Assembly (NCBI GenBank): GCA_016177705.1
Contig: JACOUT010000005.1
Coordinates: 1-30,373, forward strand
Direction: 5' to 3'
DNA length: 30,373 nt
Source: Deltaproteobacteria bacterium
GTDB lineage: Bacteria; Myxococcota; UBA727; VGSZ01
The translations under genes and the position numbers were made by a program. How positions within the stretch are numbered: the stretch's first letter is position 1; each line of letters starts with the position of its first letter. The notes under the pieces were generated by a model. The model had not been told where the DNA came from, made no database searches, and saw nothing but the letters and a program-made list of their open reading frames with translations. Below, piece after piece: positions 1 through 30,373 of the stretch.

Positions 1-885
1 AGGGTCGGCGGCGCCGTCGCCGCCGGGACAGCCGCCCCGGCGGGAGCCGTCGACGACGCCGGCCGCGAGGCCCGCGCCGCCGCCCGCGCCGCCCGTGTCC
101 GGCGCGATGCCGCCTACCCCGCCGTCGAGGCCGTGGGCTCCTCCCCCTCCTCCGCCCGACTCGATCTGGCCGCCGCCGTCGGCACCTTCGAGGCCCACGC
201 CGCCGGCGCCGGCGCCGCACTCACCGGCGCTGCGCGCGCCGGCGCCGGCGCGCGCGCGTCGCGCGCTCGCGTCGAGCATGCCGTCGAGACGCGCGTCGCC
301 GAAGACCGCGATCACCACGGCCGCGCTACCGGTGAACTGCAGCGTCGCGCCTGCAGCGATGTCGAGCGAGTCGAGCGCCAGCACGAGCGCGCCGTCGGGG
401 CCGCGCTGCAGCGCGGATGCGCTGATGCCCACGAGGCAGCCGTCGAGCGTGGGCGCGTCGGTGTCGATGCCGGTGCTGCACACGACCGAGAGCGCGCCGC
501 CGGGAGCGAGCGCGTCGGGATCGAGGCCGAGCGGAGTGAACGGGAAGGTGGCGGGATCGCCCTCGCCCTCGCCCTCACCTTCTCCTTCTCCTTCTCCCTC
601 TCCTTCTCCTTCTCCTTCTCCTTCTCCTTCGCCTTCTCCTTCGCCTTCTCCTTCGCCTTCTCCTTCGCCTTCTCCTTCTCCTTCTCCTTCGCCCTCTCCC
701 TCTCCCTCGCCTTCGCCTTCGCTCGGGGATGCTTCGGCGGCGCAGACGCCCGCGTAGCAGTTGGCGCCCGGTGGGCACTCGTCGTCGGCGGTGCACGCCA
801 ACGCGGCCATGCCGACCAAGCGGCAGGCCGTGACCACGACCAGCAGCGTCACCACCAGCGCCGTCAGGCGCACACGCGAGCCCAC
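1..885 (-). CDS. Secreted lipoprotein, 3'-truncated by the window edge. It has a signal peptide with lipobox, a short Cys motif, an ~28x Glu-Gly acidic linker, then a Gly-rich and beta-strand-rich region.
   Basis: Hand translation of the minus strand in the frame antisense to the listed +133..1008 ORF gives MGSRVRLTALVVTLLVVVTAC-RLVGMAALAC-TADDECPPGANCYAGVCAAEASPS-(EG)n-DPATFPFTPLGLDPDALAPGGALSVVCSTGIDTDAPTLDGCLVG...GGGGGAHGLDGGVGG... The frame is open all the way to position 1, which is why no terminated minus ORF in this frame appears in the track. An in-frame TAG lies just upstream at 895-897. The start is GTG at 885, with an alternative GTG at 873 giving MRLTALVV.... It has a positively charged n-region, a hydrophobic core and a VTAC lipobox. 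Confidence 0.6.
   Translation of the reverse strand, partial: MGSRVRLTALVVTLLVVVTACRLVGMAALACTADDECPPGANCYAGVCAAEASPSEGEGEGEGEGEGEGEGEGEGEGEGEGEGEGEGEGEGEGEGEGEGEGEGEGEGEGDPATFPFTPLGLDPDALAPGGALSVVCSTGIDTDAPTLDGCLVGISASALQRGPDGALVLALDSLDIAAGATLQFTGSAAVVIAVFGDARLDGMLDASARRARAGAGARSAGECGAGAGGVGLEGADGGGQIESGGGGGGAHGLDGGVGGIAPDTGGAGGGAGLAAGVVDGSRRGGCPGGDGAADP
559..722. repeat. Imperfect hexanucleotide tandem repeat (CCTTCT / CCCTCG units on the plus strand, GAGGGC / GAAGGA on the minus strand). It codes the (Glu-Gly)n linker of the 1..885 lipoprotein.
   Basis: Directly visible run ccctcgccctcgccctcaccttctccttctccttctccctctccttctcc.... All three plus-strand frames and the other two minus frames give low-complexity SP, FS and poly-R ORFs in the track, which is typical of a coding microsatellite read in wrong frames. 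Confidence 0.9.
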
Positions 886-1114: not shown

Positions 1115-2560
1115 ATGCCACGCACGCTCCTGCTGCTCGTCGTAGCCGCCGCCACCTGCATCGTCGCCGCGTGCAGCGTCGCGGGCCTCACCCCCATACC
1201 CCAGGCCGGGGCCACGCCCGGAGGCGTGCAAGACATGAGGCTCGCGCGCGACCTGATCGCGCACGGCCAGGTGCCGCCGCCGGAGGCGTTCGTCGTCGAG
1301 GGGATGTTCTCCGAGCACGACCTGCCGTTGGCAGGGGCGACGTGCGCGCAGGCCCTGTGCTTGCGGGCAGCGGGCGGCGTCGCGCCAAAGCACGACGGCG
1401 CGGCGCGCGGCTTCGTGCAGATCGGCATGTCGTCCGCCATCGACGCCGGCGCGTGGCAGCCGCCGCCGATGACGCTGGTGCTGACGGTCGACGTCTCGTC
1501 GTCGATGGGCTTCGAACAGGCCGACACCACGCCCGGCGAGATGAGCAGGGTGCTGCTCCGCCGAATCGCCGATCGCCTGCGCGATCAAGACCGCGTCGCC
1601 ATCGTCACCTATGGCACCACCACCACCACGGTGTTGCCCCTCACCAGCGCCACCGAGCGCGCGCGCATCTTGTCGACCATCGACGCGCTCACCACCGACG
1701 GCTCGACCAACATGGAGGCCGGCCTGCGCCTTGCCTATCAGACAGCGCCCAACGACGACGACGGCGACGGGGACGTGCGAGTGCTGCTGTTCACCGACAC
1801 GCAACCAAACGTCGGCGCAACGCAGCCAAGCGACTTCGAGGACATCGTGGCAGCCGGGGCCGCGCGCGGCGTGGGGCTGACCGTGTTCGGCATGGGCGTA
1901 GGCGTCGGCCAGGAGGTGTTCGCGGCCATGGCCAACTTCCGCGGCGGCAACGCGTTCGGCGTCATCGAGCCCGAGGACGTACCGCGCGTGCTCGACGACT
2001 CCTGGCCGTTCTTGCTGTCGCCCATCGCCAACGAGCTCGAGCTGGCGCTCACGCCGGACGGAGCGGCGACGGTCAGCGGCGCCTACGGCTTCCCCGGCAG
2101 CAGCGACGACGGCAGCGCCGGCCTGCGCGTGGAGAGCGTCTTCCTGTCAAAGCGACGCGGCGCGCTGCTGGTCGAGCTGCAGGGGCTCGCGCCCGGCTTC
2201 TCGGCCGCCGGCACGCTCCGCTACACGGTCCCGGGGGAGCCCGCGGAGGTGGAGCAGGGCATCCACGTCGAGCACGACGGCACCGTCGACGAGCGCGGAC
2301 ACGCGTACCAGCAGCCGTCGGTGGCCAAGACCGTGGCGCTGGCGCTCCTGGTCACCGGCATGCGCGAGGCCGCGCAGCGCTACCAGGACGGCGAGGCCGA
2401 CGCTGCCATCGCCGGCATGGAGGTGGTCGCTGCGCGCGTCGCGGAGGACGCCGGCGCCATCGACGACCCGGCGCTGGCGCCCGAGGTGGCGCTCGCTGAG
2501 GCGATGCTCGAGCTGCTGCGCGCCGGCGCGCCGCAGGGCAGCCTCTACGGCGGCTACTGA
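1115..2560 (+). CDS. Von Willebrand factor type A (VWA) domain lipoprotein with an intact MIDAS motif.
   Basis: This is an internal ATG of the listed 902..2560 ORF, preceded by GGAGG 7 nt upstream. The N-terminus MPRTLLLLVVAAATCIVAAC is a signal peptide with an IVAAC lipobox. The MIDAS motif D-x-S-x-S is present in TLVLTVDVSSSMG. Downstream TDG-like motifs occur in TTDGSTNMEAGL and VLLFTDTQPN. The upstream 71 codons of the ORF are Arg/Pro-rich and non-coding in character. Confidence 0.8.
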   Translation: MPRTLLLLVVAAATCIVAACSVAGLTPIPQAGATPGGVQDMRLARDLIAHGQVPPPEAFVVEGMFSEHDLPLAGATCAQALCLRAAGGVAPKHDGAARGFVQIGMSSAIDAGAWQPPPMTLVLTVDVSSSMGFEQADTTPGEMSRVLLRRIADRLRDQDRVAIVTYGTTTTTVLPLTSATERARILSTIDALTTDGSTNMEAGLRLAYQTAPNDDDGDGDVRVLLFTDTQPNVGATQPSDFEDIVAAGAARGVGLTVFGMGVGVGQEVFAAMANFRGGNAFGVIEPEDVPRVLDDSWPFLLSPIANELELALTPDGAATVSGAYGFPGSSDDGSAGLRVESVFLSKRRGALLVELQGLAPGFSAAGTLRYTVPGEPAEVEQGIHVEHDGTVDERGHAYQQPSVAKTVALALLVTGMREAAQRYQDGEADAAIAGMEVVAARVAEDAGAIDDPALAPEVALAEAMLELLRAGAPQGSLYGGY

Positions 2561-2578: not shown

Positions 2579-3988
2579 TCACCCGCTGAGCGGCACGCAG
2601 GTGCCGTCTGCGCACACCAGCGGGGCGCAGCAGTCGAGCGACGACGCGCACGCGCCGCATGCGCCGTCGACGCAGGCCTGGTTGCCGCAGTCCTCGCAGC
2701 TCCCGCAGCCGGGGGCCGGCGGCTCACCGTCGTCGCCGCCCGGGTCGCTGCCCGGATCATCGCCGCCGCCGCCGCTCGGATCGCCCGCGGGCTCGCCGTC
2801 GTCGACCGGCATGCCGGTCTCGTCGCAGGAGCCGGCGCCATCTTGCACGCTCTCGTCCCAACCGACGTGAACCACGCCGGCCTCGACCAGCTCGCGCACC
2901 AAGAGCGCGCCTTCGACGTCGAGGGGGCCGGCGGCGATCAGGCGCGCGTTCGGCGCCCACAGGTTGCCTTGAAAGTCGAGATCGCCCGCGAGCAGGATGT
3001 CCTCGGCGCCCGCGACGTAGGTGCGCACCTTGGCGGGCGGCCCGCCCTCCACGCCCATCTCGAAGTCACCGGATACGAGCAGGCTGCCGCCGACGAACAC
3101 GTCCAGCTCACCACCGCCCTGCACGTCGATCTCGAAGACGCTGACGCTCTCGAGGTCGCCGCCGACATAGAGCGCGGTCGGCCCGGTCACCGTCAGCCAC
3201 AGGGGCGCGACCGCGCTGATGCGGTCGACGTAGTAGCGACCGGGAGGCAGCGTCAGCTCCTTCGGCTGCAAGAGGCCGATGAGCGCGTCGCGCGTCAGGC
3301 CGATGGCGTCGTTGTCGTTGTGCTGCTCCGCGTCGGCGATGAAGCCGTTGACGTCGAGCCGATCGCCGGGATCGCACGGGCAGGGCAGGTCCACCGTGAC
3401 CGGCGTGTTGACCACGGTCGCCGCGGTGGTGCCGAGGCCCACCGACGACGAGGCGGGGATGTGCAACGTGCCGACCACGTCGGTGACGAAGCCGCGCAGG
3501 TCGCCGCCGACCCAGGCATCGGCGCCGACGTCGATGTCACCCGCCGAGGTGACGTCGCCCTGGGTGTACAGCTCACCGCCGATCTCGTGATTGCCGATGG
3601 GCAAGGCGCTGCCGCCCACCGCGAGCGAGCCGGCGATGGCACTGTCGCCCGTCGACGTGAAGCTGCCGTTGGTGCCGGCGCTGCCGCCCTCTACCGGCTG
3701 CGAGGGATCGACGCGGAAGGCGTCGACGCGCAGCACCGTCGAGAACGCCAGGTCCTCGCAGGTGCACAGCCCGAAGCGGAAGGTGGTGGCGGCGAGGTCG
3801 GCGCCGCACACGGCGGCGTTCGGCGTCACGCCGACCACGCCGGGCGGGGCGGCGCCGAGGTCGTCGGGCACGTCGCGCGTCGGCGGCGGCACCGCGCCCG
3901 GCGGCGTGCACGCGGCCGCGAACGCGTAGGCCGCGAGCAACGTGGCGTGTGCGGTTCCTGCGATAGGGATGGTGCGGGTGCGCGGCAT
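2579..3988 (-). CDS. Secreted lipoprotein with beta-helix-type G-D-x-x-V/G-G-x-L repeats (bactofilin/DUF4097-like appearance) and a C-terminal cysteine-rich knot.
   Basis: This is an internal ATG of the listed 2579..4021 ORF with the SD-like GAAGAGG upstream. MPRTRTIPIAGTAHATLLAAYAFAAAC is a signal peptide with lipobox. The body contains repeats such as ALYVGGDLESVSVFEIDVQGGGELDVFVGGSLLVSGDFEMGVEGG. The C-terminus is CGSCEDCGNQACVDGACGACASSLDCCAPLVCADGTCVPLSG, with 11 Cys in 40 aa. Its stop is only 18 bp from the VWA gene stop, a convergent arrangement. Confidence 0.75.
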   Translation of the reverse strand: MPRTRTIPIAGTAHATLLAAYAFAAACTPPGAVPPPTRDVPDDLGAAPPGVVGVTPNAAVCGADLAATTFRFGLCTCEDLAFSTVLRVDAFRVDPSQPVEGGSAGTNGSFTSTGDSAIAGSLAVGGSALPIGNHEIGGELYTQGDVTSAGDIDVGADAWVGGDLRGFVTDVVGTLHIPASSSVGLGTTAATVVNTPVTVDLPCPCDPGDRLDVNGFIADAEQHNDNDAIGLTRDALIGLLQPKELTLPPGRYYVDRISAVAPLWLTVTGPTALYVGGDLESVSVFEIDVQGGGELDVFVGGSLLVSGDFEMGVEGGPPAKVRTYVAGAEDILLAGDLDFQGNLWAPNARLIAAGPLDVEGALLVRELVEAGVVHVGWDESVQDGAGSCDETGMPVDDGEPAGDPSGGGGDDPGSDPGGDDGEPPAPGCGSCEDCGNQACVDGACGACASSLDCCAPLVCADGTCVPLSG

Positions 3989-5333: not shown

Positions 5334-6257
5334 GTGAACAAGCGGCAGTGGACCATTCGGGCCTTCGAGCCCGCGCAGGATCGCCCCGGCGTGCAAAAGC
5401 TGTGGGCCGGCGTGTGCTCCTTCGACGGCAGCGTGCCCACCCGCACCACCGCGGAGATCGACGCGCGCCTCAAGCACCCGGCGCACGAGGGCGGCGCGCA
5501 CTGGCGCGTGGTCATTGCGGGCAACGGCGCCATCGTCGGCGCGCTCGAGGTCGGCTTCATCGGCACCGTGCGCACCGAGGTGCTGTGCGCGGTCAACGCC
5601 GCGTGGCGTCGGCAGGGCATCGGGCGCGCGCTGCTCCAGGCGGCGCCGCGTGAGCGCCGCCTGCTCGTGACCTCGCGCGCGAGCGTGACCGGTGCAGCCG
5701 AGCTGCTGACGTCGGAGGGCTTCACCGAGCGCTATCGCGAGGCGCGCATGCGCCGGAAGTCGAAGGGCCTCGACCCACTCGAGATCCCGGACGGCGCCGT
5801 GGTCGCCGTCGACACCGAGCGCGACGTCGAGCGCTGCCTCGCCTCGCTGCTCGAGGTGTTCGGCGACGACGCCGAGCAGGACGCCGGCCTGGTCACCGCG
5901 TGGCTGCGGCGCCCGGATTGCCGCGTGCTCTACCTCAAGGTGGGCAGCAGGGACGTCGGCATCTGCATCATCGCCGGCAGCGAGCACGCCAAGCGCAGCG
6001 AGCGCAAGCCGGACGGCGCAAGCACCATTGGCGTCGTCGAGCAGGTCGGCCTCACCAAGCAGGTGCGCGGCAAGGGCATGTCGCGACCGCTGGTGCGCGC
6101 CGGCCTGGTGGAGCTGGCCAAGATGGGCTTCGCCGACCTCGAGGTGCTGGCCGATCGACGTCGCGCCAGCGCCGCCGAGCTGTACGAGGCCGAGGGGTTC
6201 GCCGTCGTCGACGACGAGGTCCACTGGATCAAGCGCGAGCCGTGGGCCAAGGAGTGA
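5334..6257 (+). CDS. Tandem-GNAT N-acetyltransferase with an MshD-like two-domain architecture.
   Basis: There are two acetyl-CoA-binding motifs: RRQGIGRALLQAA in the first half and VRGKGMSRPLVRAGLVELAKMGF in the second half. The length of ~307 aa fits two GNAT folds. The start is GTG. Confidence 0.8.
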   Translation: MNKRQWTIRAFEPAQDRPGVQKLWAGVCSFDGSVPTRTTAEIDARLKHPAHEGGAHWRVVIAGNGAIVGALEVGFIGTVRTEVLCAVNAAWRRQGIGRALLQAAPRERRLLVTSRASVTGAAELLTSEGFTERYREARMRRKSKGLDPLEIPDGAVVAVDTERDVERCLASLLEVFGDDAEQDAGLVTAWLRRPDCRVLYLKVGSRDVGICIIAGSEHAKRSERKPDGASTIGVVEQVGLTKQVRGKGMSRPLVRAGLVELAKMGFADLEVLADRRRASAAELYEAEGFAVVDDEVHWIKREPWAKE

Positions 6258-6261: not shown

Positions 6262-6630
6262 ATGACCAGCCGACGAGCGGCACCGGCAAGTTCTCTGCTG
6301 GCGACGGCCGCGCTGGCGACGCTCGGCGCGCTGGCGCTCGCGTGCCCGGTCGGCGAGGTGCGCGTGCCGGGCGGCCAGGACATGGGCGAGGAGTGCTTCG
6401 ACGACGAGGAGTGCGACGATCCGGGCACCTGCCTGAACGGCGTGTGCTCGGGCTATCCGTGCGACGAGGGCGGTGGCTGCAAGAACGACCTGGTGTGCGA
6501 GCCGGTAAGCGACCAGGCGAGCTGTGTCATGCCCTGCTCGGACACCGACGACTGCCTGGCGCGCCAGGAGTGCGTCGAGGTGCCGCGCTCGTCGGGAAAT
6601 CCGGACGACACCATTACGGTCTGCTTGTAG
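6262..6630 (+). CDS. Small cysteine-rich lipoprotein of 122 aa with 12 Cys in the mature part. Resembles the Myxococcus cysteine-rich repeat (EECDDG core).
   Basis: The ATG at 6262 lies 4 nt after the GNAT stop, with a strong SD AAGGAGTG 6 nt upstream. MTSRRAAPASSLLATAALATLGALALAC is a signal peptide with lipobox. It is followed by CFDDEECDDPGTCLNGVCSGYPCDEGGGCKNDLVCEPVSDQASCVMPCSDTDDCLARQECVEV. This is the in-frame tail of the listed 6028..6630 ORF. Confidence 0.7.
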   Translation: MTSRRAAPASSLLATAALATLGALALACPVGEVRVPGGQDMGEECFDDEECDDPGTCLNGVCSGYPCDEGGGCKNDLVCEPVSDQASCVMPCSDTDDCLARQECVEVPRSSGNPDDTITVCL

Positions 6631-6671: not shown

Positions 6672-7742
6672 TCACGAGAGCGGCGGCAGCGCGATCACCA
6701 GCAGCTCGGCGGGTGCAGCCGGGTCGTCGCGGTCGACGACGACGTAGGCCTTGCCCGGCTGCGTCTCATCGAGCGCGATGCCCTCGACCTTGTCGGTGAG
6801 CGGCCGGCCGCGCTCGTCGAGGATGGGCACCAGCACGCGGCTGCCGTCGGGCCGGAGCAGGCCGACGGCGGTGCCCTTGACCTCACCGTCGTCGATGGCG
6901 TTGGGGCTCGCCTCGGCCGCAGCGAGGAAGACGAGCCCGAGCGGCGAGGCGGTGGCGTCGGTGAAGGTCAGGCGCGTGCCGTCGACCTCGCCGAGCTGAT
7001 GGGCCACGACGTTCTTGGGGGCGGGCGCCGTGTGCGCGAGCGGCTCGCGCAGGTGGTCGAGTAGCGCCGCCAGTGGCAGGTCGCAGGTGGCGTCGACGGC
7101 GGGGCCGGTCGCATCGGCAGCGCCGTTGCCGCGGTTGAACAGCCGCAGCGTGCCGCCCGGCGCGCCGCCGTGCGCCTCGTCGACGATGGCCATGCCTTCG
7201 ACGTTCAGCTCGCTGCCGGCGAAGGCGCGCGTCGTGCGCAGGCGGGAGAACAGCGCGTGGGCAGGCAGCTCCTCGAGGATGGGGCCGTCCTTGGTGAAGC
7301 GCGTCAGCACCAGCACCTCGCGCGGCGCCGCCGAGCCGGAGCCGATGGCGAGCAGCGCGGGCGCGCCGTCGACGGTGAGCGCGCACACCGCCTCCAGATC
7401 GAGCTTGTCCATCTTGTTGCCGCGCTGCTTGTCGAACTGGCGCACGCCGCCCTTGCCCGGTGGCAGGTCGAGCGCGTCGACGCGCTGGCCCTTCACGTCG
7501 ACGAGCGCGATGAAGCGCGCGTCGTCCTGCACCACCGCCAGGCGCCGGCCGACGCCCGGCACGTCGACGAAGGCGCAGCCCGAGCCCGAGCGCACGTGCG
7601 CGGGTCGGTCGCGCGCGGCGTCGGCGCCGTCGCTGTAACGCAGCTTCCTGCGCGACAGCACGCGCGCGGTCGCGGTCGCGCCGATCGCCTGCGCGCCACG
7701 CGTCGGGGGTAGGGTGCCCGCGCTCCGGGGATCGAGCTTCAT
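6672..7742 (-). CDS. Hypothetical protein, possibly a beta-propeller or phytase-like fold. Function unknown.
   Basis: This is the only frame in this interval with balanced amino-acid composition (K, D, E, F present). The competing ORFs 6883..7779(-) and 7015..7638(+) are Arg- and Ser-rich. It has recurring motifs EGMAIVDE...GG and KVEGIALDE...YVVVDRDD. It lies 64 bp downstream of mltF on the same strand. Confidence 0.55.
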   Translation of the reverse strand: MKLDPRSAGTLPPTRGAQAIGATATARVLSRRKLRYSDGADAARDRPAHVRSGSGCAFVDVPGVGRRLAVVQDDARFIALVDVKGQRVDALDLPPGKGGVRQFDKQRGNKMDKLDLEAVCALTVDGAPALLAIGSGSAAPREVLVLTRFTKDGPILEELPAHALFSRLRTTRAFAGSELNVEGMAIVDEAHGGAPGGTLRLFNRGNGAADATGPAVDATCDLPLAALLDHLREPLAHTAPAPKNVVAHQLGEVDGTRLTFTDATASPLGLVFLAAAEASPNAIDDGEVKGTAVGLLRPDGSRVLVPILDERGRPLTDKVEGIALDETQPGKAYVVVDRDDPAAPAELLVIALPPLS

Positions 7743-7806: not shown

Positions 7807-9282
7807 TCATTGTGGGAGCGGGAACACCGAGGCCCAGTTGTCGTAGCGCGACTGGATGTCGCTCACGTACTTGACCGGCTCGCTGCCGCGGCAATAGCCG
7901 TGCGGCATGCGGCGCGCGACCTTGGGATCCTCGAGGCGCAGCATCGCCTTCTCGACGTTGCCGAACCACTTGTTCGGGTCGAGGCCCATCTCCTTCGCGA
8001 GCGCGCGCGCGTCGGCGACGTGGTGCGGGCCGGCGTTGTAGGAGGCGAGCGCGAAGCGCACGCGGTGCTTGAAGGGCAGCTCCGGCTCGAAGCCGGCGAT
8101 GAGCTGCGCCATGTACTTGATGCCGGCGTGCACGTTCTTCTCGGGGGGCCGCACGTCGTGAAAGCCGAGCGCGCGCCCGGTCTTGGGCATCACCTGGAAC
8201 AAGCCGAGCGCGCCGCACCAGCTCTCGGCGTGCTCGTCGAAGAAGCTCTCCTGGTAGGCCTGCGCGGCCATCAGGCGCCAGTCGATGCCGTAGCGCGCCG
8301 CGTACTTCTTGATGAGCGGATCCCACTTGGAGATGGCGCCGGTGGCGCGCACGTCGTGCTGCGCGGGCGCGTTCTTGCTGGGGCGCGCGAAGTACTTCCG
8401 GTGCAGGCGCGCGATGGTGCCCGGGTTCGAGCGAACGAAGGCATCGAGCGCGGCGCGCAGCTCGGGGTTGCTCGGCCGTGTCGCGCAGGCGACCGGCACG
8501 GCGCGCTCGAGCACCAGCGTGGCGACGGCGCCCTTGGTGGCGGCCAGCTCGACGGCGGCGATGGTGCTGTCGGCGACGGTGAGCGGGATGGCGCCGCTCG
8601 CCACCTGCGCGATCAGCTCCTCGGTCTCCACGTCCTCGGGGGCGTCGACCAGCGTGAACCCATGCTGCGCCGCCAGCGGCTCGAGCCGTGCGCGGTACGA
8701 CGACGAGCGGCGCACGTGGACGCTCCGCCCGGCCAGCTCGGCGACGGTGCGCACCGGCGGCTGCCCGGCGGGCTGCACCAGCACCTCGTCGACGGCGAGG
8801 TAGGGCTTGGAGAACGCGACGCGCGCGCTGCGCTCCGGTGTCACGCTCATGCCGGCCGCGATGACGTCGGCGCGACCCTCGAGCAGCCACGGGATGAGGT
8901 CGCTCGCCTGCTCGGGCACCACGGTGTCGACGCGCAGCTTGTGCTTGGCGGCGAAGGCCTTGATGACCTCGAAGTCGAAGCCCTGCTGGACGCCCTTGTA
9001 GAGGAAGAAGCTGGTGGCGTTGTTGCGCACGAGCACGCGGATCGAGCCGCGGCGCTTGAGGTCGGCCAGGTCGCCCGTCGACAGCTCGTCCTTGTGGGCG
9101 GTGAGCGCCGCCTCCATGGCGCCGGCCTCGTCCTCGATGGCGACCTGCGCTTCGGGCGGCGCCGTTGGAGCCACCTGCGCGATCTCGGGATCCGAAGGCT
9201 CGGCGGCGCTCGCGGCAGTGGCCAGGCAGGCGCCGAACAGCGCCCACGACGAAAGCGGCGATTGCCGGCGGCGCGTTCTCAT
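7807..9282 (-). CDS. mltF: Membrane-bound lytic murein transglycosylase F. It has an N-terminal family-3 solute-binding-like domain and a C-terminal SLT lysozyme-like domain.
   Basis: This is an internal ATG of the listed 7807..9405 ORF giving MRTRRRQSPLSSWALFGACLATAASAAEP as signal peptide. The SBP_bac_3-like region is LKRRGSIRVLVRNNATSFFLYKGVQQGFDFEVIKAFAAKHKLRVDTV. The SLT catalytic region is AYQESFFDEHAESWCGALGLFQVMPKTG...YNAG. Confidence 0.85.
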   Translation of the reverse strand: MRTRRRQSPLSSWALFGACLATAASAAEPSDPEIAQVAPTAPPEAQVAIEDEAGAMEAALTAHKDELSTGDLADLKRRGSIRVLVRNNATSFFLYKGVQQGFDFEVIKAFAAKHKLRVDTVVPEQASDLIPWLLEGRADVIAAGMSVTPERSARVAFSKPYLAVDEVLVQPAGQPPVRTVAELAGRSVHVRRSSSYRARLEPLAAQHGFTLVDAPEDVETEELIAQVASGAIPLTVADSTIAAVELAATKGAVATLVLERAVPVACATRPSNPELRAALDAFVRSNPGTIARLHRKYFARPSKNAPAQHDVRATGAISKWDPLIKKYAARYGIDWRLMAAQAYQESFFDEHAESWCGALGLFQVMPKTGRALGFHDVRPPEKNVHAGIKYMAQLIAGFEPELPFKHRVRFALASYNAGPHHVADARALAKEMGLDPNKWFGNVEKAMLRLEDPKVARRMPHGYCRGSEPVKYVSDIQSRYDNWASVFPLPQ

Positions 9283-9389
9283 GGCGCGCAGTCTAGCGCG
9301 GGTCCGCCTCCGCGCCCTGCGAGACCGCACCGGCGTTCCGGCCTCCGCCGCGCCGACAGGATTGGCGGCATGGCTGCTACCGTAGCCGG

Positions 9390-9848
9390 ATGGGCGGTGC
9401 CGCAAAGCCCGGCGACCAGGACGCGCTCGTGACGCGGGAGCCGACGCAGCCCGCAGGGACGGGCCGCGCCGTGACCGCGCGGCGTGGCCGCACCGCCGAT
9501 CAGCTCGACGTCGACGACATCTTGGACGTGCTGCGGCGCCGCAGCCGGCTGTATTTGTACGTCACGCTCGGCAGCGCGCCGCTCGCCGCGGGCCTCGCCG
9601 CCACGCTGTTTCTCGCCGGCATCGACGGCTATCGCGTGGTCGTCGCCGTGGTCGGTGTGCTTCTGGGCACCTACGCGGTCGCGCGCGCGAGCCGGCGCCG
9701 CATGATGCTCGAGCTCGACGTCGATGAAGGTGTGCTCGCGCTCATCGAGCGGGCCGAGCGTGCCCTCAACACGCGCCGCATGCGGCGCATCGATCGCGCC
9801 TATGCAGAAGAAGTGCTCGCTCGCGTGCGAGAGTCGTGGCGCACCTGA
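9390..9848 (+). CDS. Hypothetical small membrane protein with two predicted TM helices.
   Basis: It has high GC3, a hydrophobic stretch LYLYVTLGSAPLAAGLAATLFLAGIDGYRVVVAVVGVLLGTYAV, and a charged C-terminus. It is divergent from mltF with a ~107 bp spacer. There is no recognisable family. Confidence 0.45.
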   Translation: MGGAAKPGDQDALVTREPTQPAGTGRAVTARRGRTADQLDVDDILDVLRRRSRLYLYVTLGSAPLAAGLAATLFLAGIDGYRVVVAVVGVLLGTYAVARASRRRMMLELDVDEGVLALIERAERALNTRRMRRIDRAYAEEVLARVRESWRT

Positions 9849-9869
9849 TCTGCAGCATGAGGACCAAGT

Positions 9870-11453
9870 TCACGGCGCTCGATCGGTGGCGCTGAGGGGC
9901 TGACCGAGCGCTGCGGGCGGCGTCAGCGCCGCCAACGCGCGCAACGCCTCGACCAACGCCGGCGCCATCCCCGGCCCTATCGAGTTCTGCTCACCGTACT
10001 GGCCCTCCGGGTCGTAGGCGAACGGCTCGTCGACGTCCCACTGGGGCGCCGGGATGATGTAGCCGAGCGCGTCGCCGGCGTTGTTCAGCACCACGCGCAC
10101 CGGTGCTTCGCGCACCAGGCCGGAGTAGGCGGGCTCGGGCTCGGCGTCGGGAAGATCGCCACCCTCGGGGCGCTCGACGAAGGACGTGCCGTCCTCCTTG
10201 GCCAGCCACAGCTCGCTGTACAGCTCGCCCGGCATGCCGGTCAGCTCGACGTCGCCGAGCGAGAGCGACGACACCTCGCTGCCGATGCGGATCTTGCCCG
10301 CGATGACGTCGTCGATGGAGAGGAACTCGAGCTGGTCGTCGGGGATGCGCTCGCCCTGCTCGTCCCAGACCGCGCGTCGGATCATGCCGAGCTGGAAGGC
10401 GAGCGCCAGCGGCGTGTTGGTCGGCGTCAGGAAGGTGCCGAGGCGGCGGAAGGCGAGCGCGCCGTCGACGAGGGGCGCGTCCAGCACCGACTCGGCAGCG
10501 ATCTGCCCCACCTCGCGGCCGATGCGCTCGGCGCGCTCGAAGGTCCCCTGGGGACAGGTCTCTGCGCCGGCGTCGTCGGGGCACACGGTCAACCCGATGG
10601 TGGTGGTGAGGCCGCCGAGCAGTCCGGGCGCGAAGATGGCGACGGTGCCCGGCAGGCGCGCCTCCACCTCCTCGCGCAGGAAGTGCGGGTAGTCGCTGGT
10701 CAAAAGCGTGTTGTCGGAGCCGAGCGCCTCGGGGTGGTTGCCCCACACGACCAGCGTGGCGCGCGAGCCGCCCTGCTCGTCGACGAAGTCGAGCGCGGTC
10801 ACGGTCGGATCGAGCACGATCGGTTGGCGGCTGTCGCGCACCCAGGGCGAAGCGTCGCCGCGCCCGACCCGCAGCGACACCGGCACCAGCGCCGCGCGCG
10901 CCTCGGCCAGCGCCGCCACCGACTCGTCGACCAGGCGCTGCATGTAGGTGGGGTCGATGCCGGTTGCGCCCACGCTCGAGCCCCACATGCCCATGGTGTC
11001 CTTGGCCTCGTGCACGTGCGTGGTGGCGACGACGATGGTGTCGAGCTCGAGGCCGGCGTCGAGCGTGGCGCTGCGGAGCCGCTGCACCTCGTCGTGAAAC
11101 AGCCCGACCAGATCGAGCACCACCAGGCCGACGGCGGTGTCGCCGCGCTCGAGAACGAGCGCGCGCGCCCATTGGTCGTCGTGCACGCCGGTCGCTTGGC
11201 GGCCGATGTCGAAGCCGGCCATCCACACCGGCGGGTCGTTCTCGCCGACCGGCGGCGTGATGGTGCGGGCGGCGGCGCCGGCCAGGAGCAGGCCGTCGGC
11301 GTGCGCGCAGCCGACGGCGCCCGGGCACACCAGCGCCGTTGTCAGGCCACGCGCATCGACGATCACCGAGGTGTCCATCACGGCCGGCGGCGGCTGGCTC
11401 TCGGGGCAGCCCGCGACGACGACGGCGGTGACGGCGATCGATAGCAGGCGCAT
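9870..11453 (-). CDS. Lipoprotein resembling the neutral/alkaline ceramidase N-terminal domain family.
   Basis: This is an internal ATG of the listed 9870..11558 ORF. MRLLSIAVTAVVVAGC is a signal peptide with lipobox. ARTITPPVGENDPPVWMAGFDIGRQATGVHDDQWARALVLERGDTAVGLVVLDLVG and TTHVHEAKDT follow the pattern of ceramidase-N-like hydrolases. The family call is from memory of the motif pattern only. Confidence 0.6.
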   Translation of the reverse strand: MRLLSIAVTAVVVAGCPESQPPPAVMDTSVIVDARGLTTALVCPGAVGCAHADGLLLAGAAARTITPPVGENDPPVWMAGFDIGRQATGVHDDQWARALVLERGDTAVGLVVLDLVGLFHDEVQRLRSATLDAGLELDTIVVATTHVHEAKDTMGMWGSSVGATGIDPTYMQRLVDESVAALAEARAALVPVSLRVGRGDASPWVRDSRQPIVLDPTVTALDFVDEQGGSRATLVVWGNHPEALGSDNTLLTSDYPHFLREEVEARLPGTVAIFAPGLLGGLTTTIGLTVCPDDAGAETCPQGTFERAERIGREVGQIAAESVLDAPLVDGALAFRRLGTFLTPTNTPLALAFQLGMIRRAVWDEQGERIPDDQLEFLSIDDVIAGKIRIGSEVSSLSLGDVELTGMPGELYSELWLAKEDGTSFVERPEGGDLPDAEPEPAYSGLVREAPVRVVLNNAGDALGYIIPAPQWDVDEPFAYDPEGQYGEQNSIGPGMAPALVEALRALAALTPPAALGQPLSATDRAP

Positions 11454-11499
11454 CGCGCCCAGGATGCCGCAGCGTGTGCGGTGTGCAAGGCGGTGCGAC

Positions 11500-13784: not shown

Positions 13785-14321
13785 TCAGCGCAGGAGCCGG
13801 TGCACGTGCTCCTCGAGCAGCCGGTGATCCGCCAGGGCGAAACCCTCGTTGCGCTGCACGATGAAGCCCTCGGCGTCGAACAGCATGGTGGTGGGTAGGC
13901 CCTGCAGCTTGAAGCGCGCGCGCACCGCGCCGCTCTTGTCCCACGCCACCTTGAAGTGCGGCCGCATCGACGCCCAGAAGCGCCGCGCCGCCACCGGGTC
14001 GTCGTCGACCGAGACCGCGATGACGTCGAGGCCGTCGCCCTGATAGGTGCGAAAGAGCTGATCGAGGTGCGGGAACGCCATGCGACAGGGCGCGCACCAG
14101 GAGGCCCAGAAGTCGATGAGCGTGACGCTGCCGAGCATCGGCGGCGTCGGCACCGGCGCGCCGGCGAAGTCGACCAGCCCCGCGAGCGGGTGGACGTTGT
14201 CGGCGACGGGAAGCTGCTCGGGCGCGGAGGCGCAGGCCGCGAGCGCGCCGGCGCCGCCGACCAGCAAGGCGCGGCGCGACAGCAGGGTCGCGCGCGGGGT
14301 CTTTGCTCGCGGCGTGGTCAC
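13785..14321 (-). CDS. TlpA/ResA-like thiol:disulfide oxidoreductase lipoprotein (thioredoxin fold, CxxC).
   Basis: WASWCAPC is the active site. The N-terminus VTTPRAKTPRATLLSRRALLVGGAGALAAC is a signal with lipobox and an RR motif. It is the last 178 codons of the listed 13785..15641 ORF. The remaining 440 codons overlap mpl out of frame and are Arg-rich. The GTG start overlaps the mpl TGA stop (GTGA). Confidence 0.75.
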   Translation of the reverse strand: MTTPRAKTPRATLLSRRALLVGGAGALAACASAPEQLPVADNVHPLAGLVDFAGAPVPTPPMLGSVTLIDFWASWCAPCRMAFPHLDQLFRTYQGDGLDVIAVSVDDDPVAARRFWASMRPHFKVAWDKSGAVRARFKLQGLPTTMLFDAEGFIVQRNEGFALADHRLLEEHVHRLLR

Positions 14322-15772: not shown

Positions 15773-15785
15773 GGCGCCAGATACC

Positions 15786-16283: not shown

Positions 16284-16377
16284 CGGCGCAGTCTGGTGAG
16301 AATCCCGCCGACGTCAAGCCCCGGAAGATCCGCGGGGCGCCTTGACGACCACCCCCCAAGTGACGACAACCACGCTG

Positions 16378-16674
16378 ATGGTCTCGCTGCTGCTCCTGTT
16401 GTGCGCCGCCGCCCCCGATTGGGCGGCGTGGCTCGAGGACGCCGCGGCCACCATCGCCCCCCTCGAGGACGTCGATGCGGCCGCCAGCGAAGCGACCGCG
16501 GTGGCACAGCGGGCCGGCACCAGCGCCGCCGCCGTTCTGCCACCGGTCGGTCGGCTCCGGCCGCCGGCGCCGCGCGTCTGCGAGGTGCCGTCCGTCCAGC
16601 CGACCGACGTGCCGCGCCCGCCGACGGTGCTGGGCGAGGGCGGGGCGACGGCGCGCGGCCCACCGCGCCGCTAG
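16378..16674 (+). CDS. Possible small secreted or leader ORF upstream of secA (speculative).
   Basis: This is an internal ATG of the listed 16342..16674 ORF giving MVSLLLLLCAAAPDWAAWLEDAAATIAPLEDVDAAASEATAVAQRAG.... It has a hydrophobic N-terminus and high GC3. There is no family support, and it could be a chance ORF in the GC-rich divergent promoter region. Confidence 0.25.
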   Translation: MVSLLLLLCAAAPDWAAWLEDAAATIAPLEDVDAAASEATAVAQRAGTSAAAVLPPVGRLRPPAPRVCEVPSVQPTDVPRPPTVLGEGGATARGPPRR

Positions 16675-27579: not shown

Positions 27580-30373
27580 ATGCGCGGGCCATTGCTGCTC
27601 ACGGCCTTCATGTTCGTGTTGGCTTGTCCGGCCCTGTTGGACGGCGGGGGCGAGGAGGGCGAGGGCGAAACAAGCGAGGGTGAGGGAGAGGGCGAGGGCG
27701 AGGGAGAGGGTGAGGGTGAGGGAGAGGGTGAGGGAGAGGGTGAGGGTGAGGGCCTACGCTTCGGCGGCATCGCGCACGTCGTCGCGGATGGCACCGGCGC
27801 AGTGGTCGTGACCTGGCTCGAGGCGGTCGACGACGTCACCGCGCACGCGCAGATGAGCTACCACCTGTACCGCGACGACAGCGAGGCCGCCGTGATCGCG
27901 CAGGTCGACGGCGGTGGAGCGCCCGTTGCCACATTCACGGGTGTCACGCAGAGCACGATCACGGGCCTGAGCGCGGGCCAGACGATCTGGCTGTTGGTCG
28001 TCGCCCAGGACGGCGATGGCAACACCAGCAGCGACCGGCGCGCGGTCCCCGCCACCACGGCATCTGTTCCGCTGGTCTTGCGCGCCCCCGTGACCGACCT
28101 GTCGACCCTCGACGTCGCCGTGACCGAACACGGCGTGGACGCGTTCACGGTCGTCGGTCCTGACGCTGCTGCGCTCGCGGTCGGCGACCTCATCATCGTA
28201 GACAACACGTTTGGTCGAACGCTGCGCCGGATCATCGCCTACGCCGGCAGCGGACCTGACTTCGCGATGACAACCGAGAAAGCCGACCTGATGGCCGCGA
28301 TCCAGTCGGGCGAGGTGCGCGCGTCCGCTGTGATGGTGTCCCCCGAGACCAGCGGGCTGTCGGGCCAGGCCGCCGGACACTGGTCGCGCCGCTACCACGA
28401 TGACAGCACGGGCTTGTCCATCACCGAGAGCGGCACGCGCCGCGTCGACTTCCTTGAGACCGACGGCGTCGCGCCATTGGCGGTCGATGACCTCGAAGAC
28501 GGCATCACGCTCGAATACGAGATGGGTTTCGAGCCGAGCTTCGAAGCGATCGTGCGCTTCAGCGACAGCTTCGTCGACACTCCGGAGTCGATCCGCATGA
28601 CGGCTACCGGGGCGTTCACGGTGCACGGCCTCGCTGCGTTCCAGACCTCGGGCGAGCTCGAAGTGGAGAAGGAGAAGGAGCTGCTCTCGCGCACGTTCCG
28701 CATGGTCTACGCGGTGGGCGGAGTTCCCGTGTACCAGGAAGTCATCCTCACGTTGATGGGAGCCGTGGAGCTCAACGCCGCCAGCAGCTTCGTCGCCGCC
28801 ATGGAGGTCGACGCGGAGAAGACCTTCACGTTCGGCTTTCAGTGGAATGAAGCGAGCGGTGCGCAGCTGATCCGCGAAGACGGCTTCACCCAGGAGACCA
28901 CCTTCACGCTCACCAGCGACGCGGAGGCCTCCGTCACGCTCAAGGTCTATCCGGTCATCAAGACGCGCTTCTACAAGGTCGCATCGGCGTCGCTCGAGGT
29001 GGTACCGCAGCTCACCGCGGAGGCACGAGCGCGCTTCCTGCCGCTGCCCGTGGAGCTCGAGAAGGCCGACGTCGACTTCGTCGTCGACGCCGGTGTGGAG
29101 CTCGACCTGTCGATCTTCTCGAAGAACCTGTGGAAGTGGGAGAGCCCGCGCGTGGAGCTGTACCGCGTGCCAATACACAGCCAACCCGAGATCAAAGCGA
29201 TGGCGACCACGACCACCGGCAACACGTGTCACCCGTTGTCGTTCTTCCTCGGCATCCAGGATGGGTACCTGAACAAGGTGCTACCGGAGAACATCGGGCT
29301 CGCTGTCTCGCCGCCAGGCCCGGTGCTGTCCATCATCGGCGTCCGCGGCGAGATCGAATCGAGCATGCCCGGCACCTTCGAGGTGCAGGTGAGCGCGTAC
29401 GGTGACGGCGTGCTCGGTCCCATCGGCGCGCGCCACACGACATTCGAGGTGACGTTCGAGGACGCGGGTCTGCCCTGCGATCAGGTGCCGCCGCCGGGCG
29501 CCGGCCGCGCGCTCAGCTGCCTTCTGGACGTCGAGAGCGGGCTGATCGCGCCGCCATATTTCTCGCAGGATCGGATCGAAACGCCGATGCCCACGCTGGT
29601 CGCCGGCGGCCCCTGGTTGATGCTGCCGATGCGCATGGTGCGACCCATGACGCTCTCTTTGCTCATCTACTACGACGACCAGGGAGGCGCTTGGGAGAGC
29701 GGCGGCGGAGGACCCATCGGCCTCTTCGAGCCGATGCCATTCGAGGGCGTCATCCAAGTCCCGTTCATCCTCGAGAACGGCTTCACGACCTATAACGCCC
29801 CGCCGCGCGTGTACCGGCCGGCCATGTGGCTCGATGACTGCGAGACGCCGTCACCGTATGTGCTCTGCGAGAGCACGCAGTGGTGGTTCCTCACGCCCGG
29901 CACCTCCGGTGGCTTGCCGTTCCCTGACACGTACGATGTGACCACCGGCCGGCTCGGTGACGACGTCACCTCCAGTGCTGACGACGAGGCCTGCTACAAC
30001 CAGCCCACCGGGATCCCGATCCCCACCTTCGAGCTGGTGGGGCCGCGCGCGATCGCCGACCGCGACGACACTCCAGCGGGCGCCACCAGCCTTCAGCAGT
30101 TCGTGCGCGTGCGCAAGAGCGGCGGCGGCAGCGACGACGACTTCTTCCGCTTCGACCCGGCCGAGAACACACCGGGTGGGCCCGTTGTGTTCGATCAGAC
30201 TCCACCCGCGCCGCTCGAGGAGGGCTGCATGGTGGTCGTGCGCGCGGCGCTGGAGGCAGGCGGCACAGCGCCGCACCTCAAGGTGCACGACGGCGAGGCG
30301 GGCGCCGCGGCCGACAACGCGATCGTCGCCGAGGGCGACGGCGAGGTGTCGTTCCTGCCGAACCCCACGCACG
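27580..30373 (+). CDS. Large secreted lipoprotein (>930 aa, 3' end beyond the window). It has a signal peptide with lipobox, an ~17x Glu-Gly linker, an FN3-like domain, then a large beta-rich region.
   Basis: MRGPLLLTAFMFVLAC has an LAC lipobox. It is followed by PALLDGGGEEGEGETSEGEGEGEGEG...LRFGGIAHVVADGTGAVVVTWLEAVDDVTAHAQMSYHLYRDD...ITGLSAGQTIWLLVVAQDGDGNTS, an FN3-like W/Y/ITGL/GN.S pattern. The frame stays open to position 30373 with strong GC3 bias. The track shows no terminated plus ORF in this frame because it runs off the window. The listed 27754..29232(-) 492-aa ORF is its antisense shadow. Confidence 0.7.
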   Translation, partial: MRGPLLLTAFMFVLACPALLDGGGEEGEGETSEGEGEGEGEGEGEGEGEGEGEGEGEGLRFGGIAHVVADGTGAVVVTWLEAVDDVTAHAQMSYHLYRDDSEAAVIAQVDGGGAPVATFTGVTQSTITGLSAGQTIWLLVVAQDGDGNTSSDRRAVPATTASVPLVLRAPVTDLSTLDVAVTEHGVDAFTVVGPDAAALAVGDLIIVDNTFGRTLRRIIAYAGSGPDFAMTTEKADLMAAIQSGEVRASAVMVSPETSGLSGQAAGHWSRRYHDDSTGLSITESGTRRVDFLETDGVAPLAVDDLEDGITLEYEMGFEPSFEAIVRFSDSFVDTPESIRMTATGAFTVHGLAAFQTSGELEVEKEKELLSRTFRMVYAVGGVPVYQEVILTLMGAVELNAASSFVAAMEVDAEKTFTFGFQWNEASGAQLIREDGFTQETTFTLTSDAEASVTLKVYPVIKTRFYKVASASLEVVPQLTAEARARFLPLPVELEKADVDFVVDAGVELDLSIFSKNLWKWESPRVELYRVPIHSQPEIKAMATTTTGNTCHPLSFFLGIQDGYLNKVLPENIGLAVSPPGPVLSIIGVRGEIESSMPGTFEVQVSAYGDGVLGPIGARHTTFEVTFEDAGLPCDQVPPPGAGRALSCLLDVESGLIAPPYFSQDRIETPMPTLVAGGPWLMLPMRMVRPMTLSLLIYYDDQGGAWESGGGGPIGLFEPMPFEGVIQVPFILENGFTTYNAPPRVYRPAMWLDDCETPSPYVLCESTQWWFLTPGTSGGLPFPDTYDVTTGRLGDDVTSSADDEACYNQPTGIPIPTFELVGPRAIADRDDTPAGATSLQQFVRVRKSGGGSDDDFFRFDPAENTPGGPVVFDQTPPAPLEEGCMVVVRAALEAGGTAPHLKVHDGEAGAAADNAIVAEGDGEVSFLPNPTH
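27652..27753. repeat. GAGGGY / GAGGGA hexamer repeat encoding the (Glu-Gly)n linker of the 27580 lipoprotein.
   Basis: Directly visible as gagggcgagggcgagggagagggtgagggtgagggagagggtgag.... The same repeat class, on the opposite strand and in a different gene, occurs at 559..722. Confidence 0.9.

What the first reader, a model, noticed from the sequence alone, without database searches (positions are those of the whole stretch)
6262..6630. Recurrent short cysteine-rich module (C-x2-[PG]-x2-C-x2-G-x-C, core EECDDG) in four different secreted proteins of this window
The same type of small disulfide module appears in four places. The first is the 122-aa mini-lipoprotein (CFDDEECDDPGTCLNGVCSGYPCDEGGGC...). 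The second is the N-terminus of the 1..885 lipoprotein (CTADDECPPGANCYAGVC). The third is the C-terminus of the beta-helix lipoprotein (CEDCGNQACVDGACGAC...CCAPLVCADGTCVP). The mini-lipoprotein also has internal repeats. The EECDDG core resembles the Myxococcus cysteine-rich repeat. This points to taxonomic origin and to a shared, probably extracellular, structural or binding function. A free-standing 12-Cys lipoprotein made of this module alone is unusual.
Basis: partly seen in the sequence, partly recalled or inferred. Interest (0 to 1): 0.5.

Follow-up and report, generated by a model that had tools for sequence, protein, structure and literature searches.

The report
Twelve-cysteine mini-lipoprotein partnered with VWA lipoprotein

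Summary
Window 6262..6630 (+) is a real gene: GC3 is 0.89, an AAGGAG ribosome-binding site sits 8 nt upstream, and other assemblies call the identical product. It encodes a 122-aa lipoprotein with a lipobox Cys28 and 12 further Cys.

About 0.03 are expected by chance.

No protein hits TIGR02232 or DUF4215. There are only sub-threshold hits to EB, DUF7107 and Dickkopf_N.

About 40 homologues exist. All are free-standing proteins of 81-126 aa from uncultured Myxococcota-type bacteria, and all are labelled hypothetical. All 12 Cys are invariant down to 30% identity, and every protein ends C-[LMIFY].

The protein is three tandem C-x5-C-x5-C-xn-C units, each ending in a beta-hairpin (AlphaFold2 pLDDT 88). 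No solved structure matches it.

The new result concerns gene context. In 8 of 8 members outside the window's own clade, the gene lies immediately downstream of an orthologous VWA lipoprotein gene with an intact metal-binding (MIDAS) site, often overlapping it. In the window that VWA gene is 3.7 kb upstream (1115..2560), and the mini gene sits 4 nt behind a GNAT gene instead.

Best reading: a disulfide-rich partner or ligand of the VWA lipoprotein. Interest is modest.

The parts
6262..6630 (+). Gene for the 122-aa, 12-Cys mini-lipoprotein (stop codon TAG at 6628-6630)
   Evidence: Translation. GC3 is 0.89 and a Shine-Dalgarno sequence is present. The identical product is called in other assemblies. 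There are 13 close and about 27 distant homologues.
6249..6254 (+). AAGGAG ribosome-binding site, lying inside the last codons of the upstream GNAT gene. The GNAT stop TGA is at 6255-6257, 4 nt before the ATG.
   Evidence: Read directly from the sequence. The same 3-4 nt GNAT-to-mini spacing is seen in L001-L005 and L007.
6262..6345 (+). Signal peptide with a lipobox-type end (LALA-C28)
   Evidence: R4 and R5 are followed by an uncharged hydrophobic stretch ending in [AG]-C. This Cys is conserved in at least 90% of the 26 aligned members. AlphaFold2 models residues 10-26 as a helix.
6394..6447 (+). Unit 1: CFDDEECDDPGTCLNGVC (C45-x5-C51-x5-C57-x4-C62). It ends in a beta-hairpin at residues 56-63.
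   Evidence: The block M41-C67 is invariant in the window clade apart from one D/E site. Nine of its 27 codons vary, eight of them only synonymously.
6460..6525 (+). Unit 2: C67-x5-C73-x5-C79-x8-C88, with a hairpin at residues 78-89
   Evidence: hhalign of unit 2 against unit 3 gives probability 91%.
6535..6624 (+). Unit 3: C92-x5-C98-x5-C104-x16-C121. It forms a long hairpin (residues 104-121) with an acidic tip. One hydrophobic residue (L122) follows, then the stop.
   Evidence: Every family member ends C-[LMIFY].
1115..2560 (+). VWA lipoprotein gene (481 aa, lipobox IVAAC20, MIDAS D126-x-S128-x-S130 ... T198 ... D228). It is the orthologue of the gene that directly precedes the mini gene in all other lineages.
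   Evidence: Pfam VWA and VWA_2. Full-length similarity to the upstream neighbours of distant mini genes, E 1e-18 to 1e-64. Alignment A3.
5334..6257 (+). Two-domain GNAT acetyltransferase gene. In this clade only, it lies immediately upstream of the mini gene.
   Evidence: Pfam Acetyltransf_7/_1/_10. MshD-like over its full length but below the cut-off. Synteny.
2597..2650 (-). Second copy of the 4-Cys spacing: CASSLDCCAPLVCADGTC, in the C-terminal tail of the DUF7305/pAdhesive_15 lipoprotein (gene 2579..3988)
   Evidence: The tail is conserved in the RBG_16_71_12 orthologue. hhalign against the unit-1 profile gives probability 83%.
742..795 (-). Third copy: CTADDECPPGANCYAGVC, 9 residues after the lipobox Cys of the partial lipoprotein 1..885 and followed by a (GE)n linker
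   Evidence: Sub-threshold Pfam hits to Dickkopf_N, EB and DUF7107 at this spot. Family HMM E 7e-4 among the 352 ORFs of the window. hhalign probability 95%.

Best explanation
The gene encodes a member of an unannotated family of small lipoproteins (81-126 aa), so far found only in uncultured Myxococcota-type bacteria.

After a Sec/lipobox signal and a short tether, the mature protein is one compact domain of about 80 residues. It is built from three tandem units, C-x5-C-x5-C-xn-C, each ending in a beta-hairpin. The domain is presumably locked by six disulfides made in the periplasm.

The usual place of this gene is directly downstream of the gene for a lipoprotein of about 480-500 aa that carries a VWA domain with a complete MIDAS metal site. 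The two genes often overlap. I therefore propose that the mini-lipoprotein is the dedicated binding partner (ligand, cap or adaptor) of that VWA lipoprotein in the cell envelope. An acidic group of the mini protein would complete the MIDAS metal coordination, much as small disulfide-rich disintegrins engage integrin I-like domains. Candidate acidic groups are the acidic tip of hairpin 3 or the invariant free C-terminus.

In the lineage of this window the pair has been pulled apart. The VWA gene is 3.7 kb upstream, and the mini gene is now expressed behind a GNAT gene.

Shown: the gene, the family, the Cys pattern, the triplication, the confident fold model, the lipoboxes, the gene adjacency and the intact MIDAS site.
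Inferred: the disulfide bonding, the physical interaction and the MIDAS mechanism.
For: Gene reality.

Family: 13 close homologues (61-76% identity) plus about 27 distant ones. All are free-standing, and the 12 mature Cys are invariant in a 26-sequence alignment at 30-74% identity. Every member ends C-[LMIFY].

Purifying selection: 8 of the 9 variable codons in the M41-C67 block are synonymous only.

Fold: AlphaFold2 mean pLDDT 87.7, above 92 for residues 41-122, with three hairpins.

Triplication: hhalign.

Gene pairing: in L010, L012/13, L014/15, L016, L017/18, L019, L020 and L103/104 the gene directly upstream on the same strand is a VWA protein. Spacing runs from a 19-nt overlap to a 93-nt gap. 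For P0014 the upstream gene encodes 511 aa, but no DNA was available. These neighbours are full-length homologues of window 1115..2560, and all carry a lipobox and DxSxS...T...D. No other neighbouring gene is shared among those loci.

In the window and in L005 the VWA orthologue lies on the same strand, 3.7 kb upstream.
Against: Seen from the VWA side the link is loose. None of 80 metagenome loci holding VWA relatives has a family member within 2.5 kb, including L036, whose VWA is 51% identical to a mini-linked one.

Within the window's own clade, L001-L004 and L009 have no VWA gene within 8 kb upstream. There the conserved neighbours are GNAT and DUF6929.

No acidic residue is invariant across the whole family, so the MIDAS ligand is a guess.

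Gene adjacency among uncultured relatives could partly reflect shared ancestry. However, the surrounding genes differ completely between loci.
Confidence: 0.45

Rival explanations
1. A stand-alone extracellular adhesion or structural module. The same Cys unit would be used as a generic surface-binding piece in several lipoproteins, and the mini protein would simply be that unit on its own, with no specific protein partner.
For: The same 4-Cys unit decorates two other lipoproteins in the window, one of which has an adhesin-type beta-helix (DUF7305/pAdhesive_15). In the window's own clade the VWA gene is not always nearby.
Against: A generic module would not be expected to keep one specific neighbour, yet 8 of 8 members outside the window clade follow the same VWA orthologue while all other neighbours differ. 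The invariance of a 27-residue block and of the exact C-terminus points to a specific interface.
Confidence: 0.2
2. A periplasmic or surface protease inhibitor of the small disulfide-rich type (WAP, squash or carboxypeptidase-inhibitor-like). It might be carried by the VWA protein in the way bikunin is carried by inter-alpha-inhibitor heavy chains.
For: Members give weak Pfam hits to WAP (14 of 26), CarbpepA_inh (2) and Squash (2). Foldseek's local matches include the squash trypsin inhibitor MCTI-A over 22 residues at rmsd 0.9. The closest solved relatives of the VWA partner by sequence are inter-alpha-trypsin-inhibitor heavy chains H4 and H1.
Confidence: 0.1
3. A metal-binding protein: either a metallothionein-like thiolate protein or a Ca2+ buffer. 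The 12 Cys and the many Asp/Glu would bind metal ions rather than form disulfides.
For: The protein is very rich in Cys and in acidic residues. D-x-D-C motifs recur before the second Cys of units 2 and 3.
Against: An even number of invariant Cys, export to the oxidising envelope and a confident beta-hairpin fold fit disulfides. Cys-x-Cys and Cys-Cys clusters typical of metallothioneins are absent.
Confidence: 0.05
4. A member of the Myxococcus cysteine-rich repeat family (TIGR02232 / DUF4215), as suggested by the EECDD core.
For: Only the short string EECDD(P)G, which resembles the family's consensus as recalled from memory.
Against: No hit to TIGR02232 or PF13948 for any of the three proteins at E <= 10, and none among the 26 family members scanned against Pfam. 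The EECDD string is specific to the window clade and is not conserved in the wider family.
Confidence: 0.02
5. Precursor of a secreted Cys-rich peptide natural product or bacteriocin, modified by neighbouring enzymes (GNAT here, radical SAM elsewhere).
For: In this clade the gene lies 4 nt behind a GNAT gene. Radical SAM genes occur near the pair in L012 and L016.
Against: The protein has a Sec signal with an invariant lipobox Cys, which RiPP precursors lack. The GNAT and radical SAM neighbours are not shared among lineages. The whole 80-residue domain is conserved and folds confidently.
Confidence: 0.03

Closest known systems
EB module (PF01683), DUF7107 (PF23416) and the Dickkopf N-terminal Cys-rich region (PF04706)
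   Same: Small extracellular disulfide units with a ...C-x2-G-x-C... hairpin. These are the Pfam models that unit 1 of the mini protein and the N-terminal module of the 1..885 protein both touch. Of the 26 family members, 25, 24 and 16 respectively match them at E <= 1.
   Different: Every hit of the window protein is below the curated cut-off and covers only about half of the model. The known families are eukaryotic domains or domains inside larger proteins. This one is a free-standing bacterial lipoprotein made of three units with its own invariant 12-Cys pattern and a fixed C-terminus.
Myxococcus cysteine-rich repeat (TIGR02232 / DUF4215)
   Same: Cys-rich, acidic, and from Myxococcota secreted proteins. 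It shares a short EECDDG-like string.
   Different: No HMM match. The Cys spacing differs, and the string is not conserved in the mini-protein family.
Disintegrins binding integrin I-like (VWA-fold) domains: an analogy for the mechanism only
   Same: A small, disulfide-rich protein rich in hairpin loops would present an acidic residue to the MIDAS metal of a VWA-fold domain. Here the two components are encoded side by side, and the MIDAS site is intact.
   Different: There is no sequence or fold match and no invariant RGD-like motif. The interaction itself is untested.
Inter-alpha-trypsin inhibitor: heavy chains (VIT-VWA) carrying the small Kunitz protein bikunin. An analogy only.
   Same: The heavy chains are the closest solved sequence relatives of the VWA partner (E 2e-18). 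A large VWA protein is paired with a small disulfide-rich protein.
   Different: The mini protein is not a Kunitz domain. The ITI linkage is through chondroitin sulfate. There is no evidence of protease inhibition here.

Membership tests
Myxococcus cysteine-rich repeat (TIGR02232; Pfam DUF4215/PF13948) | Match to the family HMM at or above its curated score | tested here: not met
   The family does not appear for the mini protein, the DUF7305 protein or the 1..885 protein in NCBIfam or Pfam at E <= 10. It is also absent among the 26 family members scanned against Pfam. HMMER filters may hide matches with E above about 0.1.
EB module (PF01683) | Score at least the gathering threshold (24.3 bits) over the 52-position, 8-Cys model | tested here: not met
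   15.7 bits, E 0.016, and only model positions 17-40 are matched. One distant member (P0037) carries a precomputed PF01683 hit. 24 of 26 members match at E <= 1, best 4e-4.
DUF7107 (PF23416) | Score at least the gathering threshold (24.6 bits) | tested here: inconclusive
   The window protein scores 13.3 bits, E 0.11. However, 25 of 26 members match at E <= 1, best 2.7e-5. A distant relationship of the unit to this model is possible, but it could not be tested profile against profile.
Dickkopf_N (PF04706) | Score at least the gathering threshold (25 bits) | tested here: not met
   The model is not hit by the window mini protein. The N-terminus of the 1..885 protein scores 16.2 bits. 16 of 26 family members match at E <= 1. 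DKK4 appears in the PDB search only at E 0.57.
Bacterial lipoprotein (lipobox, signal peptidase II substrate) | Positively charged n-region, an uncharged hydrophobic stretch, and [LVI..][ASTG..][GAS]-Cys within the first 15-35 residues or so | tested here: met
   R4 and R5, then an uncharged hydrophobic stretch, then A-L-A-C28. This Cys is conserved in at least 90% of members, with typical L-[AS]-[GA]-C boxes in most. This was judged by inspection against the pattern as I know it. No dedicated predictor was available, and lipidation is not shown.
The 12-Cys mini-lipoprotein family defined here (alignment A2) | M-G-x2-C-x5-C-x4-5-C-x4-C-S-G-Y-x-C-x4-5-C-x5-C-x8-C-x3-C-x5-8-C-x5-C-xn-C-[LMIFY]-end | tested here: met
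   All 12 Cys are invariant, G60 is invariant, and G55 and Y65 are conserved in at least 90% of members. The family HMM scores the window ORF at E 1.4e-30.
The 12-Cys mini-lipoprotein family defined here (alignment A2) | Gene lies directly downstream of the orthologous VWA lipoprotein gene | tested here: not met
   This holds in 8 of 8 members outside the window clade. In the window the VWA gene is 3.7 kb upstream, with four genes in between.
VWA domain with MIDAS (the partner protein, 1115..2560) | Pfam VWA match plus D-x-S-x-S, a Thr and an Asp forming the metal site | tested here: met
   VWA at 53.4 bits and VWA_2 at 55.1 bits. D126, S128, S130 and T198 are invariant. D228 is conserved in 6 of 7 and is Glu in L014.

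The most novel reading that the evidence does not exclude
A two-lipoprotein envelope module specific to Myxococcota. A MIDAS-bearing VWA lipoprotein would be regulated or capped by a translationally coupled, triple-hairpin, six-disulfide mini-lipoprotein with a fold not yet seen in solved structures. This would be a bacterial counterpart of the integrin-disintegrin type of recognition. The invariant C-terminus, or the acidic tip of hairpin 3, would serve as the MIDAS ligand.
Probability: 0.15. Interest if true: 0.55.

Novelty: new variant of a known kind. Interest (0 to 1): 0.3.

Why it matters
Small disulfide-rich modules are common decorations of myxobacterial secreted proteins, so the recurrence itself is ordinary. 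Two things are new at a modest level.

First, the free-standing protein belongs to a coherent family that no curated library names. It has an invariant 12-Cys signature and a confidently predicted fold that matches no solved structure.

Second, outside this lineage the family is always encoded right behind one particular VWA lipoprotein.

Bacterial VWA lipoproteins are numerous and mostly have no known ligand. A genetically assigned small partner would give a concrete, testable pair for learning what such envelope VWA proteins bind. If the pairing proves to be only positional, the finding reduces to one more hypothetical Cys-rich lipoprotein.

Tried and rejected
1. TIGR02232/DUF4215 membership: no hit. 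Rejected.

2. Fold assignment:
- Foldseek against PDB gave nothing below E 3.9.
- A profile search of PDB sequences gave nothing below E 0.15; scytovirin, THSD7A and DKK4 appear only at E 0.3-0.6.
- The AFDB library was not available.

3. Disulfide connectivity could not be derived, because model coordinates are not exposed to scripts.

5. A genome-collection scan with the broad alignment A2 failed for lack of a conserved stretch. With the close alignment A1 it found only two species representatives.

6. Testing the pairing from the VWA side: 80 metagenome loci with VWA relatives contain no family member within 2.5 kb. The mini protein is therefore an accessory of a small subset of this VWA family, not a universal partner.

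7. The two giant hits P0015 and P0030 in the exhaustive search are Cys-rich or repetitive proteins without the pattern. They were discarded as spurious.

8. GNAT as functional partner: the 4-nt coupling is conserved only inside the window's clade, where whole-region synteny is conserved anyway. It is absent from all distant members. Judged positional.

9. A fourth protein carrying the module was searched for in all six frames. None was found.

10. Literature searches for the repeat family, DUF7107, YfbK-type VWA proteins, and VWA plus cysteine-rich lipoprotein in myxobacteria returned nothing relevant.

Full report
**What is at the coordinates**

Window 6262..6630 (+) is an ATG-to-TAG ORF of 122 codons. 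It shows the codon-position GC pattern of real genes in this 72% GC window: 0.67/0.54/0.89. An AAGGAG ribosome-binding site at 6249-6254 lies inside the end of the upstream gene. Exactly this product is called as a gene in independent public assemblies.

The protein starts with a signal peptide (R4 and R5, then a hydrophobic stretch) ending in A-L-A-C28. That is a lipobox-type end. Twelve further Cys lie in the remaining 94 residues.

**Is the recurrence real?**

All three matches are in the true coding frame of a predicted lipoprotein:
- 6412-6447 (+), the mini protein
- 2597-2632 (-), the C-terminal tail of a DUF7305/pAdhesive_15 beta-helix lipoprotein (gene 2579..3988)
- 742-777 (-), nine residues after the lipobox Cys of the partial lipoprotein 1..885

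The complete spacing C-x5-C-x5-C-x4-C likewise occurs once in each of these three proteins. Two hundred dinucleotide-preserving shuffles gave means of 0.01 and 0.035 matches and never more than one.

No fourth exists.

The similarity goes beyond the Cys residues. The unit-1 profile of the mini-protein family aligns to the 1..885 N-terminus with hhalign probability 95%, and to the second module of the DUF7305 tail with 83%. The plain family HMM finds the former only marginally (E 7e-4 among 352 ORFs) and does not find the latter. Because these segments were picked by the regex first, the figures are indicative only.

**What the module is not**

None of the three proteins matches TIGR02232 or its Pfam counterpart DUF4215, even at E <= 10. 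The same is true of the 26 family members. The EECDD string that prompted the idea is confined to the window's own clade.

The only Pfam contacts are sub-threshold:
- EB: 15.7 bits against a cut-off of 24.3
- DUF7107: 13.3 bits against 24.6
- Dickkopf_N: 16.2 bits, for the 1..885 protein

Across the family, DUF7107, EB, Dickkopf_N and WAP are touched by 25, 24, 16 and 14 of 26 members at E <= 1. So the unit is of the generic small-disulfide-hairpin kind. It is not a demonstrable member of any curated family.

**The family**

A word-indexed search found 13 close homologues (61-76% identity, 113-120 aa). An exhaustive HMMER scan of 1.8 billion cluster representatives and a profile search added about 27 more distant ones of 81-126 aa. 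All are free-standing. All are labelled hypothetical where any name exists.

The record titles are uncultured Myxococcales, Deltaproteobacteria RBG_16_71_12, Nannocystaceae and 'Proteobacteria' MAGs. Two giant hits were spurious.

In a 26-sequence alignment spanning 30-74% identity:
- All 12 mature Cys and G60 are invariant.
- The lipobox Cys, G55 and Y65 are conserved in at least 90%.
- Every member stops exactly one hydrophobic residue after the last Cys.

Within the window clade the block M41-C67 is invariant apart from one D/E site. Nine of its 27 codons vary, eight of them only synonymously.

**Architecture**

The Cys pattern resolves into three tandem units:
- Unit 1: C45-x5-C51-x5-C57-x4-C62
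- Unit 2: C67-x5-C73-x5-C79-x8-C88
- Unit 3: C92-x5-C98-x5-C104-x16-C121

Profile-profile comparison supports a triplication. Unit 2 against unit 3 gives probability 91% (P 1e-6). Unit 1 against the other two gives 45-49%.

AlphaFold2 with the family alignment gives mean pLDDT 87.7, above 92 for residues 41-122. Three beta-hairpins hold the third and fourth Cys of each unit, and they grow longer from unit 1 to unit 3.

**Genomic partners**

In the window's own clade the order NUDIX, small membrane protein, GNAT, mini, then a convergent DUF6929/DUF6910 gene is conserved. The mini ATG lies 3-4 nt after the GNAT stop. This comes with overall synteny of close relatives.

The informative result comes from the distant members. 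In all eight lineages with readable upstream DNA, the gene directly upstream on the same strand encodes a VWA protein of 476-504 aa. These lineages are L010, L012/13, L014/15, L016, L017/18, L019, L020 and L103/104. Spacing runs from a 19-nt overlap to a 93-nt gap, and every other neighbour differs. A ninth member, P0014, has a 511-aa gene upstream, but no DNA was available.

These VWA proteins are full-length homologues of one another and of window gene 1115..2560 (E 1e-18 to 1e-64). All have a lipobox and a complete MIDAS motif: D126, S128, S130, T198 and D228.

In the window and in RBG_16_71_12 the VWA orthologue lies on the same strand, 3.7 kb upstream. The DUF7305, NUDIX, membrane-protein and GNAT genes lie in between. 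In L001-L004 and L009 no VWA gene lies within 8 kb upstream.

The link does not hold in the other direction. Eighty metagenome loci holding VWA relatives contain no family member within 2.5 kb. The mini protein therefore accompanies only a small subset of a much larger VWA family.

Two of those loci show other Cys-rich lipoproteins in the same position. One is an unrelated 8-Cys, 100-aa ORF overlapping the VWA stop in L041. The other is an 814-aa, 97-Cys protein in L022.

**Mechanism proposed**

The facts that point to a physical partnership are:
- Both proteins are lipoproteins of the same compartment.
- The genes are adjacent or overlapping in every lineage outside the window clade.
- The VWA protein keeps a ligand-binding MIDAS site.
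- The mini protein is a rigid, acidic, hairpin-rich domain with a highly constrained face and a fixed C-terminus.

I therefore think the most likely role is a dedicated binding partner (ligand, cap or adaptor) of the VWA lipoprotein. An acidic group, either the generally acidic tip of hairpin 3 or the free C-terminal carboxylate, may complete the MIDAS coordination.

This works like disintegrin-integrin recognition, and C3b's C-terminus binding the factor B MIDAS is a precedent (both comparisons are from my own knowledge). There is no homology to either. The interaction and the MIDAS step are inference, and no invariant acidic residue exists across the family.

Rivals are a partner-less adhesion module, a protease inhibitor (only weak, generic hits), a metal binder and a peptide precursor. 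The evidence for and against each is in the Rival explanations section of this report.

**Verdict**

The interpretation as a Myxococcus Cys-rich repeat is not supported.

The free-standing protein is a member of a small, unnamed but well-defined lipoprotein family whose usual genomic partner is a VWA lipoprotein. This is a new variant of a familiar kind of protein. Interest is modest unless the VWA partnership is shown experimentally.

Noticed in passing
window about 549-714 (-) and about 27650-27760 (+): Two predicted lipoproteins (1..885 on the minus strand, and 27580..30372+ running off the window end) carry long perfect (Gly-Glu)n runs of about 17 to about 28 repeats just after the lipobox or N-terminal module, presumably as extended acidic tethers. 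These runs cause spurious Pfam hits to TrAA12 and Trypan_PARP.
   Followed up: no
window 5334-6257 (+): The GNAT gene upstream of the mini gene is a two-domain acetyltransferase. It aligns over its full length to mycothiol synthase MshD (TIGR03448, E 7e-14, 51.9 bits against a cut-off of 163). It is more conserved in the clade (86-90% identity) than the mini protein (65-72%). Its substrate is unknown.
   Followed up: partly
L041 3874-4173 (+); L022 3930-6371 (+): Other VWA relatives have different Cys-rich lipoproteins in the same downstream position. L041 has a 100-aa ORF with a lipobox and 8 further Cys that overlaps the VWA stop by 4 nt and is not detected by the family HMM. L022 has a lipoprotein of at least 814 aa with 97 Cys. 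This hints at a wider theme of VWA lipoprotein plus Cys-rich partner.
   Followed up: partly
window 2579-3988 (-): A DUF7305 / pAdhesive_15 (ice-binding-like adhesin) lipoprotein lies between the VWA and mini genes. It has a Gly/Asp/Pro-rich linker and a 13-Cys C-terminal tail, and is conserved in RBG_16_71_12 and SJ783 relatives at 79-84% identity.
   Followed up: partly
window 6672-7742 (-): A convergent DUF6929/DUF6910 protein (356 aa, no evident signal peptide) is the constant downstream neighbour of the mini gene throughout the window clade. It is absent next to distant members.
   Followed up: no
window 1115-2560 (+), compared with L010, L012, L016 and L017: The mini-adjacent VWA proteins have a Cys pair in the C-terminal helical region and tail (ADFC... 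and ...G-x-C near the end). This pair is missing from the window-clade VWA proteins, whose genes are no longer adjacent to the mini gene.
   Followed up: no
window 14318-25968: The surrounding genes are ordinary chromosomal ones: an Mpl-type Mur ligase (14318-15772, -), SecA (to 19943, +), and an RND efflux operon of AcrB-type pump, membrane-fusion protein and outer-membrane factor (20149-25968, -). An MltF-like SLT/SBP_bac_3 protein, a ceramidase-like protein and a TAP-like hydrolase lie at 7807-12969.
   Followed up: no
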